This document shows positions 11,979 to 54,628 of a stretch of 64,000 nt of DNA, piece by piece (position 1 is the first letter of the stretch; each line of letters begins with the position of its first letter). The DNA lies in contig NC_092398.1 in NCBI RefSeq assembly GCF_030028105.1, forward strand, positions 16,372,182-16,436,181, given 5' to 3'. Both the position numbers and the translations under genes were made by a program. The notes under the pieces are model-generated. The model did no database searches, was not told where the DNA came from, and worked only from the letters and a program-made list of their open reading frames with translations. This DNA comes from Mobula birostris (taxonomy: Eukaryota).

Positions 11979-13091
11979 TCAGAGCTGGTGAACGGCCTCT
12001 CTCCCAGTGTGAACTCGCTGGTGTCTCTGTAGACTGAAAGACCGAGTGAATTCCTTCCCACACACTGAACACATGAATGGCCTCTCCCCAGTGTGAACTC
12101 GCTGATGTACCTTCAGTTGAGATAACCGGGTGAATCCCTTCCCACAGTCTGAGCAGGTAAATGGCTTCTCCCCAGTGTGAATTCGCTGATGTACCTTCAG
12201 TTGAGATGACCGAGTGAATCCCTTCCCACAGTCTGAGCAGGTAAACGGCCTCTCCCCAGTGTGAACTCGCTGGTGTCCTAATAGTTGAGATGACTGAGTA
12301 AATCCCTTTCCACAGTCTGAGCAGGTGAATGGCCTCTCCACATTATGGACTCGCTGGTGTGTTTGTAGGTGGGATAACTTAGTGAATCCCTTCCCACAGT
12401 CTGAGCAGATGAACGGTCTCTCTCCAGTGTGAAGTCGCCGATGTTCCTTCAGGTGAAATGACCGAGTGAATCCTTTCCCACAGTCTGAGCAGGTGAACGG
12501 TGTCTCCCCAGTGTGAAGTGACTGATGCGCCAGTAGGTCAGATAACCGAGTAAATCCCTTCCCACACATGGAACACACGAATGGCCTCTCCCCAGTGTGA
12601 ACAGATTGGTGTCTCTGTAAGCTGAATGATCGAGTGAATCCCTTCCCACAGTGTGAACATGTAAATGGCATCTCCCCAGTGTGAACTGACTGGTGTTCCA
12701 ATAGTTGAGATGACCGAGGAAATCCCTTCCCACAGTCTGAACAGATGAACGGCCGCTCCCCAGTGTGAACTGGCTGATGTTCCTTCAGTTGAGATAACCG
12801 AGTAAATGCCTTGCCACAGTCTGAGCAGATGAACGGCCTCTCCCCAGTGTGAACTCGCTGATGTTCCTTCATTTGAGATGACCGACGAAACCTCTTCCCA
12901 CAGTCTGAGCAGGTGAACGGCCTCTCCCCAGTGTGAACTCGCTGATGTTCCTTCAGTTGAGATGACCGAGTAAAGCTCATTCCGCAGTCTGAGCAGGTGA
13001 ACGGCCTCTCCCCAGTGTGAATTCGCTGATGTTCCTTCAGGTCAGATGACCGAGTAAATCCCTTCCCACAGTCTAAGCAGGTAAGAGACAT
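11979..13091 (-). CDS. Tandem C2H2 zinc-finger protein, 13 in-frame fingers (370 aa ORF)
   Basis: 13 repeats of CxxCGKxFxxxSxLxxHQxxH with TGERP linkers; no KRAB/SCAN seen; ends by frameshift in an AG run after finger 13; true start may depend on splicing. Confidence 0.9.
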
Positions 13092-21295: not shown

Positions 21296-21525
<230 letters not shown>

Positions 21526-25464: not shown

Positions 25465-25836
25465 TTACTTGGAGCTGGTATACTTGGTCACTGCCTTTGT
25501 CCCCTCCGACACGGCGTGCTTGGCCAGCTCTCCGGGGAGCAGCAGGCGCACGGCGGTCTGGATCTCCCGGGAGCTGATGGTCGACCGTTTGTTGTAATGG
25601 GCTAGACGGGAAGCCTCGCCAGCGATGCGCTCGAAAATATCGCTCACGAACGAGTTCATGATGCTCATGGCCTTGGAGGAGATGCCGGTGTCAGGGTGAA
25701 CCTGCTTCATCACTTTGTAGATATAGATGGCGTAACTCTCCTTCCTCACCCTCCTACGCTTCTTGCCAGACTTGCCTGATGGTTTCGGCAGCGCTTTCTT
25801 AGCGCCTTTCTTGGGAGCGGGTTTCTGCTCAGGCAT
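25465..25836 (-). CDS. H2B: Histone H2B, replication-dependent, copy 1 (123 aa)
   Basis: Intact [14 protein letters not shown]...[10 protein letters not shown]; intronless; stem-loop downstream. Confidence 0.97.
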
Positions 25837-43497: not shown

Positions 43498-43869
43498 TCA
43501 CTTGGAGCTGGTGTACTTGGTCACTGCCTTTGTCCCTTCCGATACGGCGTGCTTGGCCAGCTCCCCGGGCAGCAGTAGGCGCACTGCGGTCTGGATCTCC
43601 CGAGAGCTGATGGTCGACCGCTTGTTGTAATGGGCTAGGCGGGAAGCCTCGCCAGCGATGCGCTCGAAAATATCGTTCACGAACGAGTTCATGATGCTCA
43701 TGGCCTTGGAGGAGATGCCGGTGTCGGGATGAACCTGCTTCATCACTTTGTAGATATAGATGGAGTAACTCTCCTTCCTCACCCTCCTACGCTTCTTGCC
43801 AGGCTTGCCTGATGGTTTCGGCAGCGCTTTCTTAGCGCCCTTCTTGGGAGCAGGCTTCTGATCGGGCAT
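43498..43869 (-). CDS. H2B: Histone H2B copy 3 (123 aa)
   Basis: Intact [13 protein letters not shown]...KYTSSK; TATA box mutated. Confidence 0.95.
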
Positions 43870-47221: not shown

Positions 47222-50200
47222 TGATTTTGATCAGCTCAGCATGGGTGCATGAAGCTATTGGCCAGAAGAAACTGCAGTCTAATCAAGGAGAGGGGAAGCA
47301 GACAATCCAGTTGTCTTGGTTTGACCCTTTTTGTGGACTCTGAACTGATTCTTGCTGTTGGATAATCTAATCAGAGCAACTGAAGGTGGACACAGGAAGC
47401 TTCCAGTAATGATCTGCTAAACCCTAGAGCATTCTCAAACAAGTAGCCACTTGTTATGCAAAGGGCGTGGACTCTGATCTGATTTTTTTTAACTCTGGGA
47501 CAATGTTTTTTTTTACAAAATATACTTTATTCAAAAATAAAATTATGTACAATAAAACATGCAATGACTCTCAATCCTTTACAGACATTTCCATTATGGT
47601 CTATGCATTTCCACACTTTTAGCCACACACATGGCACTCTGTTGTTTCACCTTTCCACACCATTGTTGAGGGGTATACTCCCTGCCACCCAACCCCTCCC
47701 ACACCTCTGGGAGAAGAACCCTAAACCGTGGTCCTTCCCCACTGGGCCCTTGTGGTGGGTGCACCAAGTTTCAGCGCGTCCCTCAGAGCAACAAACCTGA
47801 GACCATTCTCAGAGGAGTAGCTACTTGTCATGTAAAATGCCAGAACTACACTCTGCAGTCTCATTAAACTCTGTCTGGGTTGCCTCAGTTTACTGGTTAG
47901 GACCAGTCAGAGTGTAAAGGCAGAAATACACAGGGCTGGGGTGGGCATAGACATGAGGCAATGTTGGTTGTAGCCCTGTACAATGATCAGTAAGAAGGTG
48001 ACCCAGGTAGGTCAGGTGACCTTGAGCCAGTGGGATGGAGATGCAATGGTTCAATTGAGGAGGAACAGTATATGACCCAGCAGTTCTAAATACGCAGGTG
48101 TGATAACTCTCCAGCAGCCAGAGACCAACCATTGCAGATAAGGAGGACCCCACGGACACATGGAGATTGGGACCATGAGGAATCCCTGTCCAGTGTAGTC
48201 TCCTTGTCTGTGTAATACCTTCTCTCTTCATTGACCGTTCATGGAGTGTCAGATGTTCTAATATGGAGCACACAGGTATGATTGGAGTGTGAACCAGCAT
48301 GCTTTTTAGTTGAAATAATAAAGTTACTTGTTGGCAAATATAGATTTTCTGCACCTTACTGATCTTTATTACAAGGGGCAATTCTTGTAACAGAATTGGC
48401 TTCCCTGGGTGGGCTCGTGGATAAATCTCTTTGTTCAGCAGGAGACTCGAGTCAGGCCACGTGTGTGAGGTACAGAGATCTGGGGCTGGGTATTTAGTGG
48501 TTACTGACCCAGGATGAAGAATTCAGGAAATTCTGCAAGTCCACAGGACTTGGATTGTTTTGATTCGAGGGGATACCTCCTGAAATACATACTGGGGGAG
48601 GTGGCTGCAATATGAGGAGTTTGCTGGTCACCCTGGCTGTGAAGGGAAAACTGTTGGTGATGCCCTATGGAAAATCACCCAAGGGAATCTGTTGAGCAGG
48701 AAGTTTAAACAATTACAAAAAACAGTAGCAGTTGGTTGTTTTATTGAAGATTTGATAGAGTTATGACAAAATGCTAAAGCAGAATGGCATAGGTTAGAAT
48801 CAGAAAATAAATGTTGGTAGAAAGCAGAAGCCCAGCAAAATATATTACCACAGGAAATCTAAAAATATCGGCATAAATCTGAGGCCGAGCGAGATAGGTT
48901 CGAAGGAAAACATAGAAGGCTCGAAAGGAGTTAGAAACCTTTAGAGAAAAGGTTACTGATTTATAGGATCAGAGAGGCATAGACTTGATGCATATGAACC
49001 AGTTTCAGTTAAAATGTGAGAAATTACTTAAACGGAAATGTAAACTAGAGAAGCAGCTGAACTAGAAAAGGATGAAGTAGAAGGATTAAGGAAACAGTGA
49101 AGTGACTTAAAGACAGCTATGAATGTGATTCAGAAATCAGCACAAGTATTGCACAATCATGCAAAGTATTTAAAGCATATTCAAACACTGCAGGACCAAC
49201 TTGCATAGCGAGGTATAATATGTGCTTTTGGATCTGAAAAAGGGAAAGGTGAATATGGAGATATTGATTGGCATTTGTAGATGAAGCTACTAGAAACAGT
49301 TACGATAATTACGGAGCATCACTTACCAAGCAAATCCCGCCTACACCATACCAACTGGAGCCAGTCTCACTGTCTGCACGATTGGCACCCCTAGTTACTA
49401 TCAGAGAGGGGATCAGGGGAGCAAACCAAAAGCAGAATATAATATACACCACACCGTTTGGGGTACAGCACCTTAGAGATATTGCTGAGGATATCCAGAG
49501 GTGTGCTCGGAGACTAATCTCGAGAGCTTTTCTAAGCAACTAATCATCAGAGAATAATACACTGCTGAGATGACTCTGAGGAGAGGAAATTGAGTATATT
49601 GTGTTTACACACAAATTTACACTCAGCTTTACCAGGTATACAACGACATGGTGGGGAACAAGTGAAGAACTGAAAAACACAATAACGACTGTTATGGGTG
49701 TTAACGGAGGGGACCCAGTAAACGCGCCAGCCAAATGTTACCAGAGAAAAGGTCAACATCTCACTGTATTTGCATACCATTTATGAACTATATTCCAAGG
49801 GGTTTATGGGACAGCATTAGAGTGGGACCATTTAGGACCAGAGGGCTCAAATAGTTGATTGAGGACACTGGTGTCTCACTGTATCGATGAATGTAAAAAG
49901 GCAGTGAAAATGTTTGATCCTTTCTGAACCCACACATACTGAGGCATGTTTACAGAGGAAAATGTGTAGAGCGTAGGAAAAGGAGATACAAAGCCCAACT
50001 AAACTCCCTAATGGGAAGGTGACGCCTATTAAAAGTCAGTCAACTACATGAAGAAATGAGGGTAGGGGACCTACAGCGAGGGCCTCCCTGCCACACTATC
50101 AAGGGGCAAGGAAGAGCAGAGGAAATGGAACAGGCAGAACTGAAGGTGGAGTAATTCAATGCTATAACTGTGGTCAACAGGGGCACAATAAGAGAGAAGG

Positions 50201-52070
50201 TCCAAGCCTGAGACAAGAAAGAGCAGAACAATGTGGTTTGCCCTTGGAGGGGCCAGAAAGACGGAGCCCATAAAATAACATGGCTGAGACACCACCATCC
50301 AGGGAACTGTACCCTAAGCTTCAATGACAGTATCAGGCCTCACCAACACGGGTGTGTGACAAAACGTGGGATGAAACCGGAAGATCTCCAGTGAGTGGTA
50401 GAGTCAGAGGATGCCCTGTTACCTTTTTATGGGATACAGGAGGATCCCGAACCACAGTGAACACCACTAATATAAATAATGCAAATTGAAAGATACAAGG
50501 TAAAATTATCCTAAGTGGATTCACAGGCCATTCACAATTTGGACGTGTGAGTGTAGTATTGGAAGTTAGAATTGGAGACAGATCATTGAAACAGTTAATA
50601 GTGTTGGCGGAATTACCCAAGGAGCAGGACCATATACAGGGGTGTGATTATATGGCCAAAGCAGGGCTTTGTTTTGACCAAGTTAATTGTATGATTTGGC
50701 AGATGCCAACATGGGCATGAATATCATACACAACATGCAGATCCCAGCAGGAGTATATCAGGATAGAAGATGTACAATGGGTGAAATGTGGAGAAAACTG
50801 GAGGAGATGAGCAATGATCAATAACAGCCCCAACTGTAGCAACTAACTGTGGACAAACAGAATAAAAGAGCGCTATGGTTCACAGTTTTGGACATAAATA
50901 ACGGATTTTTGTTAATTCACATTTGCATTTACCTTTCAGGGGCAGCAGTATACATGGATTGCCCTACCACAGGGGTTCCATGGTTCCCCGTCCGTATTTC
51001 ACCAATATTTAGATGAAGGGTTAAAATGGTTTTCAACACCCAAATGCTTGGTGCAATATGTAGATGATCTCCTCCTGTGGACGGAAACCAAGCAGAACCT
51101 TTTTAATTGGGACAGAATGTAAACTCTAAAAAAGCACAGGTAATGAAGCAAGAAGTTAGTTATTTGGAAATGATCCTGACACTGGGAAGAAGAGAAATTG
51201 AGAAGCGAAGAGTAGAATCGGTTATGAAACGGCACATTCTCTGAGACCTGAAAGGGCTACGTTCTTTTCTGGGGCTGGCAGGACACTGTAGGGATCACAT
51301 TGATGGATTTTTCACGAAAGCAGCTTCTTTAGTGGAGTTACTGAAAAAAAAATGTGGAGTGGGAATGGAAATAAGAACACACCCAGGCCATCACAGCTCT
51401 GAAACAAGCACTGGCTGCTGTACCTGCATTAAAAACCCCAAATCCAAATGAGTCATTCTCATTCGAGGTGGCAAAAAATGATATCACCCTCTCAGCAGTG
51501 CTGTTACAGGAGACACATGGGAATTCAAGACCAGTCATGTATGCATCACACATGCTCTCTCCAGTAGAACAGGGGTATACTGTATGTGAAAACCACTTGT
51601 TAGCAGTTTTCAGTGTGGTACAACATTTTGCCTACATAGTGGGACTTAATTCACTTACAATACTGACAGAACATACCCCCACACAATTACTGTTAGCTGA
51701 AAGGATTAAAGATGGTTCAGTAAGCAAAAACAGAATTGCTAGATAGACACTGCTGCTGCAAGAAAGAAATATTAGTGTATAGTGAGTAAACACTACCACT
51801 ATGTGTACCAAGGAACTGAACATGAGTGTCAAATTATGATAGGAAATGATCCCAAGGCCATATTTGTATCAAAACAAAAATTAGGGGGTAGAAGTAGATC
51901 AGATAGAGTAATGACTGAGAACAAAGACAACTGGCTTGTCTGCTTCCCCTGTCCTTGATTAGACTACAGTTTCTTCTGGCCAACAAAGCAGAACCAATGC
52001 AGTCATTGATATGACACAAGATAAGACAGACAGTATTACCAGTGAAGGCAAGGAACATGGACTGTTCCAC
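47222..52070 (+). mobile_element. Degenerate endogenous retrovirus (5' LTR, PBS, gag, pro, partial pol), foamy/loki-like
   Basis: LTR ends TGTAACA at 48392 with AATAAA near 48317; PBS 48397-48414; protease FLWDTGG at 50424-50444; RT WFTVLDINNGF, LPQGFHGSP 50964-50990, YVDD 51057-51068; tether domain in ORF 51468..51746; many stops; 5' boundary uncertain. Confidence 0.85.
48397..48414 (+). promoter_or_regulatory. Primer binding site complementary to tRNA-Asn
   Basis: TGGCTTCCCTGGGTGGGC matches 17/18 the complement of the vertebrate tRNA-Asn(GUU) 3' end TGGCGTCCCTGGGTGGGC (recalled sequence); match extends through TCG. Confidence 0.88.
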
Positions 52071-54256: not shown

Positions 54257-54628
54257 TCACTAGGAACTAGTATACATGGTCACTGCTTTTGTGCTTTCCG
54301 ACATTGTGTACTTGGACTGCTCCCTGGGTAGCAGCAGGCACATGGCACTCTGGATCTCCTAGAAGCTGATGGTCGACGGCTTGTTGTAATGGTTTAGTCG
54401 GGAAGCCTCACCCGTGATGCGCTCGAAAATGTCGTTCACCAATGAGCTCATGATGCGCGTGGCACTGGAGGAGATGCTGGTATCGGGGTGAACCTGCTTC
54501 TTCACCTTGTACCCATAGATGGAGTAAGTCTCCTTCCTCATCCTTTTGCACTCCGTGCCTCCCTTGCTTTGCACTTTGGACACAGTTTTCTTGGCGCCCT
54601 TCTTGGCCACTTTGGATAGCTCAGGCAT
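54257..54628 (-). pseudogene. Histone H2B type II pseudogene
   Basis: [18 protein letters not shown]...NKPSTISF* with premature stop at 54359; degenerate stem-loop at 54210-54225. Confidence 0.9.

What the first reader, a model, noticed from the sequence alone, without database searches (positions are those of the whole stretch)
47222..52070. Foamy/lokiretrovirus-like ERV with a tRNA-Asn PBS inside the histone cluster
Seen: an LTR ending TGTAACA; PBS TGGCTTCCCTGGGTGGGC; a long charged, coiled-coil-like stretch at the start of gag (about 48760-49200); a capsid-like start LAPLVTIREG...IIYTTPFGVQHLRDIAEDI; protease FLWDTG; RT with LDINNGF, LPQGFHGSP and YVDD; then a tether domain lacking the catalytic DAS (FSFEVA...RPVMYAS...CENHLLA). 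Established: LPQG plus a degenerate tether marks retroviruses rather than Gypsy (MPFGL). W before the protease Asp and LDxxNGF are spumavirus-like. As I recall, tRNA-Asn priming is reported for some fish/amphibian foamy-like ERVs. Inference: this is a deep-branching foamy-like or loki-like ERV. To my recollection lokiretroviruses were not described from cartilaginous fish, so this could extend the host range. Integrase, env and 3' LTR are not visible in this copy.
Basis: partly seen in the sequence, partly recalled or inferred. Interest (0 to 1): 0.72.

Follow-up and report, generated by a model that had tools for sequence, protein, structure and literature searches.

The report
Dead snakehead-like retrovirus in a ray
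This is a broken, truncated copy of an old multicopy retrovirus family that is likely related to the snakehead fish retrovirus rather than to loki- or foamy viruses, and a sister lineage left one intact envelope gene, shared with two stingray species, that the host may have kept for its own use.

Summary
The element is real: LTR, tRNA-Asn primer site, gag, protease, RT and tether at 47256-51985, one of at least 40 old copies in the genome. It is not a lokiretrovirus (AU p=6e-5; loki RTs read PFG, this one LPQG). It does not group directly with spumaviruses (p=0.002), and Gag has a Cys-His box with in-frame gag-pol. It groups with frog, coelacanth and unnamed class III ERVs. Snakehead retrovirus (SnRV) is the likeliest named sister, but support is weak. 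Such ERVs are already known from chondrichthyans (CmiERV lineage I), so there is no host-range extension. The copy ends in an inverted LTR start inside a 4-bp target duplication, likely an aberrant integration, which explains the missing RNase H, integrase and env. Sister copies carry all three. Their env looks like a paramyxovirus-F-type fusogen, and many copies share one env deletion. Best lead: a sister lineage left one intact, spliced 741-codon env in a decayed provirus, 92% identical to proteins of two stingrays, with signs of purifying selection. It is a candidate captured F-type env; expression and function are untested.

The parts
47252..47255 (.). left 4-bp target-site duplication (AAGC)
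   Evidence: same 4 bases at 51986-51989; family TSD is 4 bp
47256..48392 (+). 5' LTR (about 850 bp plus an insert; start TG mutated to TA, end CA)
   Evidence: 82-88% identical to solo LTRs of 840-861 bp
47505..47782 (-). foreign insert in the LTR starting with a T-run, likely a reverse-oriented retroposon tail
   Evidence: absent from solo LTRs; identity inferred
48397..48414 (+). primer-binding site for tRNA-Asn(GTT), 4 bases after the LTR
   Evidence: 17/18 to host tRNA-Asn genes; 18/18 in L237
48500..50327 (+). broken gag: coiled coil (about 48760-49200), capsid-like part (from about 49385), TGA stop at 50325-50327; start approximate
50160..50201 (+). Cys-His box (zinc knuckle), last Cys lost in this copy
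   Evidence: Pfam zf-CCHC E=0.013; intact in 6 sister copies
50328..50702 (+). protease (WDTG at 50430), same frame as the end of gag
   Evidence: Pfam Asp_protease_2
50789..51350 (+). broken reverse transcriptase (LDINNGF 50888, LPQG 50964, YVDD 51057), with about 295 bp deleted at 50820 and several frameshifts
51375..51780 (+). tether (degenerate RNase H)
   Evidence: Pfam RT_RNaseH_2 E=2e-19; true RNase H follows in sister copies
51920..51985 (-). inverted first 66 bp of an LTR (U3 end), joined to pol over a 10-bp microhomology (51920-51929)
51986..51989 (.). right 4-bp target-site duplication (AAGC)

Best explanation
This is a dead, 3'-truncated provirus of a multicopy endogenous retrovirus family that likely belongs to the snakehead-retrovirus-related class III group (clade Huo), not to loki- or foamy viruses. 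Shown: the layout LTR-PBS(Asn)-gag(coiled coil, capsid-like part, one Cys-His box)-stop-pro-RT-tether in the window; RNase H, integrase, env and a 3' LTR in sister copies; 4-bp target duplications; at least 40 dispersed copies 75-86% identical. Inferred: the virus primed reverse transcription on tRNA-Asn and made Gag-Pol by reading through the gag TGA, as the SnRV layout suggests. It entered cells with an F-type (class Ib) fusion protein. An env-null sub-lineage later multiplied without its own envelope. The window copy likely integrated already truncated, with a U3 end at both termini after a microhomology template switch. It has no function today.
For: Tree of 32 rows: inside Retroviridae to the exclusion of loki 100/99; with frog, Xenopus, coelacanth and unnamed ERVs 89/98. 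70-row mixture tree (quick, SH-aLRT only): that clade plus SnRV 93. AU tests reject ray+loki, ray+foamy, ray+epsilon/gamma and ray+Gypsy. The window's own 68-aa RT piece is 55% identical to SnRV, 47% to the best foamy virus and 36% to the best loki. The loki RT rows shown in part 71 of the PMC7947760 supplement read PFG at motif B (one row has a gap there); SnRV reads LPQGF. SnRV Gag also has a coiled coil plus one zf-CCHC, and its gag and pol are in one frame. The gag stop followed in frame by protease is seen in the window and 6 sister copies. 39 of 50 residues around motifs A-B match CmiERV lineage I (translated by eye), which Han 2015 places with SnRV. Env core of the sister lineage: Atlas features 0.92 to PF00523 clusters, TM 0.54 to a Baculo_F cluster; signal peptide, RRRR site and TM present, no ISD or CX6CC. 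The same 1.6-kb env deletion junction occurs in 12 of 18 short-env loci tested. TSD AAGC flanks the whole insert.
Against: SnRV's own position is weak: 34/35 in the 32-row tree. The careful 70-row search did not finish. The wider clade as sister to foamy viruses is not rejected (p=0.11). The tether is only 22% identical to SnRV against 37% to loki. Fish foamy-like ERVs, ERV-L, Odin and CmiERV were not available as tree rows. The F-type call rests on one Atlas source using a low-confidence model of a sister-lineage env (41-49% identical to this family's env); my two folds failed (pLDDT 38 and 35). Similarity to SnRV Env is marginal (E=2e-4; hhalign 8%). A 4-bp repeat arises by chance 1 time in 256.
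Confidence: 0.8

Rival explanations
1. Endogenous lokiretrovirus, the first in a cartilaginous fish.
For: Dual RNase H and coiled-coil Gag; F-like env; Wang and Han screened chondrichthyan genomes without a hit, so it would be new.
Against: AU p=6e-5 and 0.002; loki clade 100/100 without it; motif B is LPQG, not PFG. Dual RH is common to retroviruses, and F-like Env is also found in foamy viruses.
Confidence: 0.02
2. Foamy-like ERV (clade Tu / FLERV).
For: WDTG protease as in foamy WDSG; 4-bp TSD; F-like env with TM 0.45 to a foamy Env cluster; wider clade + foamy not rejected (p=0.11).
Against: Ray + foamy rejected (p=0.002). Cys-His box and in-frame gag-pol are unlike spumaviruses (recalled). 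Fish FLERV RTs in the supplement have a different motif spacing (by eye). No fish FLERV row was in the tree.
Confidence: 0.07
3. An unnamed class III lineage (ray, frog, coelacanth, CmiERV-I) that is no closer to SnRV than to ERV-L-like or turtle/bird ERVs.
For: Core clade 89/98, but SnRV joins at only 34/35; turtle ERVs score higher than SnRV over RT+tether.
Against: Both best trees put SnRV next to it; shared Gag layout and gag-pol junction; Han 2015 grouping.
Confidence: 0.11

Closest known systems
CmiERV lineage I, elephant shark (Han 2015, PMC4422223)
   Same: Chondrichthyan host; RT motif A-B region 39/50 identical; about 850-bp LTR; charged coiled-coil Gag with one Cys-His box (read by eye).
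   Different: Its PBS differs (tRNA-Ser by recall) and its env has a gamma-type immunosuppressive domain (by eye); this family has tRNA-Asn and an ISD-less, F-like env.
Snakehead retrovirus (SnRV) / clade Huo (Xu 2018, PMC6001957)
   Same: LPQGF motif B, coiled-coil Gag + one zf-CCHC, gag and pol in one frame, faint Env likeness around the furin site.
   Different: Only 33-48% RT identity; different PBS; no accessory ORFs noticed in sister copies.
Frog, Xenopus and coelacanth ERVs annotated 'NYNRIN-like' or 'GIN1-like' (XP_073459965, A0A803JYW4, H3A7L3)
   Same: Nearest named proteins, 49-53% over RT or RT+tether; same clade.
   Different: Some frog copies have intact Pol; their env and PBS were not examined.
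Lokiretroviruses (PMC7947760)
   Same: Dual RNase H, F-like Env, coiled-coil Gag.
   Different: PFG motif, outside Retroviridae proper in the tree; grouping rejected.
Captured env genes (syncytins, percomORF, chondrichthyan syncytin-like candidates of bioRxiv 10.64898/2026.05.06.723177)
   Same: For the off-window env gene: intact env in a decayed provirus, shared between species.
   Different: Those candidates all have ISD + CX6CC (gamma-type) by selection; this one has neither and looks F-type.

Membership tests
Retroviridae (broad) | LTR-PBS-gag-pol-env-PPT-LTR with tether plus second RNase H | tested here: met
   window plus sister copies
Lokiretroviruses | RT falls in the loki clade, sister to other retroviruses | tested here: not met
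Lokiretroviruses | Env similar to PF00523 fusion glycoprotein | tested here: inconclusive
   no Pfam hit; Atlas features 0.92 to PF00523 clusters for the sister-lineage env
Lokiretroviruses | PFG at RT motif B | tested here: not met
   LPQG in the window and sister copies
Spumaretrovirinae / FLERV | RT groups with foamy viruses | tested here: not met
   direct grouping p=0.002; wider clade p=0.11; fish FLERVs not in the tree
Spumaretrovirinae / FLERV | Gag without Cys-His box; Pol made apart from Gag (recalled for spumaviruses) | tested here: not met
   CX2CX4HX4C and in-frame gag-stop-pro
Spumaretrovirinae / FLERV | accessory bel/tas genes and internal promoter | not tested
   no room for such ORFs noticed between env and the 3' LTR in 4 copies; not searched by profile
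SnRV-related class III ERVs (clade Huo) | RT groups with SnRV | tested here: inconclusive
   best trees agree; support 93 SH-aLRT but 34/35
SnRV-related class III ERVs (clade Huo) | close RT match to a published member (CmiERV lineage I) | tested here: met
   39/50 residues, by eye from the supplement
Epsilon/gamma (class I) ERVs | RT groups with WDSV/MLV; gamma-type Env | tested here: not met
   p=1.5e-4; no ISD or CX6CC
Captured env gene (off-window locus) | intact ORF at an orthologous site under purifying selection | tested here: met
   (indirect; no dN/dS)
Captured env gene (off-window locus) | expression and fusogenic or other host function | not testable with these tools
   needs tissue RNA-seq and a cell assay

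The most novel reading that the evidence does not exclude
This retroviral clade carries a paramyxovirus-F-type envelope, a third retroviral lineage with one besides foamy and loki viruses, and live-bearing stingray-like rays have domesticated one such env (G000:C3:127239527-127241740, ortholog of Hypanus XP_059838750 and Hemitrygon XP_072911529) as a spliced host gene under an exon outside the provirus: a captured F-type fusogen that syncytin-based screens could not see, possibly acting in reproduction.
Probability: 0.5. Interest if true: 0.75.

Novelty: new variant of a known kind. Interest (0 to 1): 0.5.

Why it matters
The window element itself is one dead copy of a known kind of ERV and does not extend any host range. 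Two things around it matter. An F-type env in a non-foamy, non-loki retrovirus would favour the scenario in which the ancestral retroviral envelope was F-like and gamma-type envs replaced it, one of four left open in PMC7947760; CmiERV-I, with a related pol and a gamma-type env, would be such a swap. A conserved intact env in live-bearing rays would be a directly testable candidate for env capture in cartilaginous fish, of a structural class excluded by the published screens.

Tried and rejected
The search for related loci in viral contigs found no relative. Both AlphaFold jobs on env gave unusable models, and the fold search on one had no hit at E<=0.001. The env profile against PDB gave only coiled-coil noise. 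The protein search for more env orthologs returned only the query's own cluster. The careful 70-row tree did not finish, so a 32-row LG+G4 tree was used for tests; rows dropped were redundant ray, foamy, gamma, beta, loki and Gypsy sequences. 5'/3' LTR dating of the window family failed: useful overlaps of only about 90-100 bp in 2 of 6 pairs, so no age is given. Contig depth for the env locus is about ten times that of paralogs in two runs; depth is no copy number, so this is a hint only. Four look-ups of earlier findings were empty. Rejected as diagnostic: LDxxNGF and W-before-Asp. Rejected: the inverted piece as a normal 3' LTR, since it faces the wrong way and lacks the polypurine tract.
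Full report
Observation. The LTR runs 47256-48392; apart from an insert at about 47505-47782 it is 82-88% identical to solo LTRs of 840-861 bp. The PBS at 48397-48414 is complementary to the 3' end of host tRNA-Asn(GTT): the pattern has 103 genomic matches and 0 for the reversed control. ARAGORN calls Asn at 6 of 8 loci scanned, Lys at one, none at one. The window differs at 1 of 18 bases and sister L237 at none. All genes are broken by stops and frameshifts, and about 295 bp of RT are missing at 50820 relative to 7 of 7 sister copies. The element lies between an H2B gene (43498-43869) and an H2B pseudogene (54359-54628) in an array where my scan found no other histone type.

Family. In the 4.0-Gb genome the RT-tether DNA has 40 scored matches of 163 candidates, 75-86% identical; the LTR query gave 2381 first-look candidates, 40 scored. 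Sister copies continue with a catalytic RNase H, an integrase and an env-like ORF before a polypurine tract and 3' LTR. Both LTR ends were found in 24 of 30 loci; 3 are followed by a PBS, 5 preceded by a purine tract, and 7 of the other 16 have an exact 4-bp target duplication. Gag carries an intact CX2CX4HX4C in 6 distinct copies and ends in TGA followed in frame by protease in the window and 6 sisters, among 20 stretches read. SnRV has the same layout. The host is a ray close to stingrays, inferred from the env ortholog below.

Why the copy stops. At 51920-51929 pol joins, over 10 shared bases, the reverse complement of the first 66 bp of an LTR. That piece lacks the purine tract, so it is not a 3' LTR. 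The whole insert 47256-51985 is flanked by AAGC on both sides, the family's TSD length. The simplest reading is one integration of a molecule with a U3 end at both termini after a template switch. A later deletion between two opposite-facing insertions would need a 1-in-256 coincidence. This step is inferred.

Placement. Nearest proteins are unnamed Logan/JGI sequences and frog, Xenopus and coelacanth ERV proteins at 49-65%. References came from tool results: SnRV (contig of 10,688 nt, the length given in PMC12193657, matching the published RT), foamy, gamma, epsilon, beta and delta contigs, and loki proteins; group labels were set by motif. Ray rows were stop-free stretches of single copies. 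The 70-row mixture tree (quick search) puts them with the frog/coelacanth group and SnRV at SH-aLRT 93, with loki and foamy apart. The careful 32-row tree gives Retroviridae without loki 100/99 and the core clade 89/98, but SnRV joins at only 34/35. AU tests reject ray+loki (6e-5), ray+foamy (0.002), ray+epsilon/gamma (1.5e-4), ray+Gypsy (2e-5) and core+loki (0.002), but not core+foamy (0.11). Fish FLERVs, ERV-L, Odin and CmiERV were not tree rows. By eye, loki RTs read PFG where this family and SnRV read LPQG, and CmiERV lineage I shares 39 of 50 residues around motifs A-B. Han 2015 places that lineage with SnRV, Xu 2018 finds clade Huo in all major vertebrate lineages, and clade III RTs are the majority in chondrichthyans.

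Env. The env remnant finds three named homologues, from horn shark and Hypanus. The 745-aa Hypanus protein has a signal peptide, RRRR site and C-terminal TM, and no ISD or CX6CC. It has no significant Pfam hit, but residues 215-690 score 0.92 by features to PF00523 clusters and TM 0.54 to a Baculo_F cluster, 0.45 to foamy Env (the whole protein stayed under the bars). My own folds failed. Longer-env copies of the window family are 41-49% identical to it. Twelve of 18 short-env loci share one 1.6-kb deletion junction that removes the furin site and fusion peptide; these loci were found with a short-env query, so this is no frequency. The two sides lie in different frames in the three copies read. 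An env-null variant therefore likely multiplied, inside cells or by complementation.

Side lead. Of 80 listed matches to the Hypanus protein (60 of 1365 candidates scored), one is full-length and open: 741 codons at C3:127239527-127241740, 92% identical to the Hypanus and Hemitrygon proteins without gaps. Its provirus has decayed: broken integrase, gag and protease remnants, RT largely absent, LTRs 79% alike over 333 bp. At half that divergence about 11 stops are expected (P about 1e-5). The first 8 residues of the stingray models are encoded 9.4 kb upstream, outside the 5' LTR, with a GT donor and an AG acceptor. Runs of 8 coded organisms hold part of the ORF, one at a share of only 0.05. In four laid runs I used 20 of 32 listed contig pieces (10 set aside as paralogs at 12% or more difference, 2 straddling the ORF edge). 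The 8 in-ORF pieces (3228 bases) have no gap and 0.45-0.63 times the substitutions of outside pieces (p=0.18, 0.002, 0.005, 0.0001). All 12 listed indels lie outside the ORF; 14 more are not shown. Against: one deep contig in run X18 skips 103 bases over the ORF start, no piece spans the whole ORF, and no dN/dS or expression data exist.

Literature seen. PMC7947760: parts 1-3 of 4 and supplement parts 1, 71 and searches. PMC4422223: part 1 of 2 and supplement part 1. bioRxiv 10.64898/2026.05.06.723177: parts 1-3 of 4, supplements closed and could bear on novelty; it accepts only ISD + CX6CC envs and does not name Hypanus or Hemitrygon. PMC12813294: passages, and its 26 Hypanus env rows, none longer than 1980 bp. 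Passages only: PMC6001957, PMC10435555, PMC11089739, PMC11468914, PMC12193657, PMC12583693, PMC12440569, bioRxiv 2024.03.25.586437 and 2023.10.26.564294. Term searches without hits: PMC9040795, PMC9967133. Listing only: PMC6669660 (co-opted foamy ERVs in geckos, which may precede this as an F-like capture). Searches found no report of this gene or of an F-type env in the SnRV clade; subscription papers are not covered. Recalled, not tested: spumavirus Gag and Pol features, and the tRNA-Ser label of the CmiERV PBS.

Verdict. The window holds a real but dead class III, SnRV-related ERV. The loki and foamy readings fail or are unsupported. Interest comes from the F-like env and the candidate captured env elsewhere in the genome.

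Noticed in passing
G000:C3:127239527-127241740 (-) (L159), first exon near C3:127251151 (L192): Single intact 741-codon F-like env in a decayed sister-lineage provirus, 92% identical to Hypanus XP_059838750 and Hemitrygon XP_072911529; candidate captured env gene.
   Followed up: partly
window 21400-64000: Tandem array of H2B genes (intact at 25465, 35269, 43498, 60514; degenerate copies near 21440, 41160, 54360; one cut at the window end) with no other histone type found by my motif scan.
   Followed up: partly
window 11979-13091 (-): 370-aa C2H2 zinc-finger ORF with 84-bp repeats.
   Followed up: no
G000:C33:19.2-42.6 Mb: About 95 of 103 matches to the tRNA-Asn 3' end lie on one contig at fairly regular spacing, suggesting a large repeated tRNA gene cluster.
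   Followed up: no
L056-L060 (G000:C17, five places): Near-identical env-deleted copies with shared flanks on one contig, so probably spread by segmental duplication rather than by retrotransposition.
   Followed up: no
L045:107-607 (+): Immunoglobulin or T-cell-receptor V-like exon next to a family copy on C9.
   Followed up: no
P0201, P0203 (horn shark gene models): Predicted proteins that look like internally deleted versions of the same env; P0201 has several transcript accessions.
   Followed up: no
P0006, P0020, P0099 (crane, cuckoo): Long bird Pol-like proteins with degenerate RT motifs, near-identical between two crane species; possibly a domesticated class III pol.
   Followed up: no
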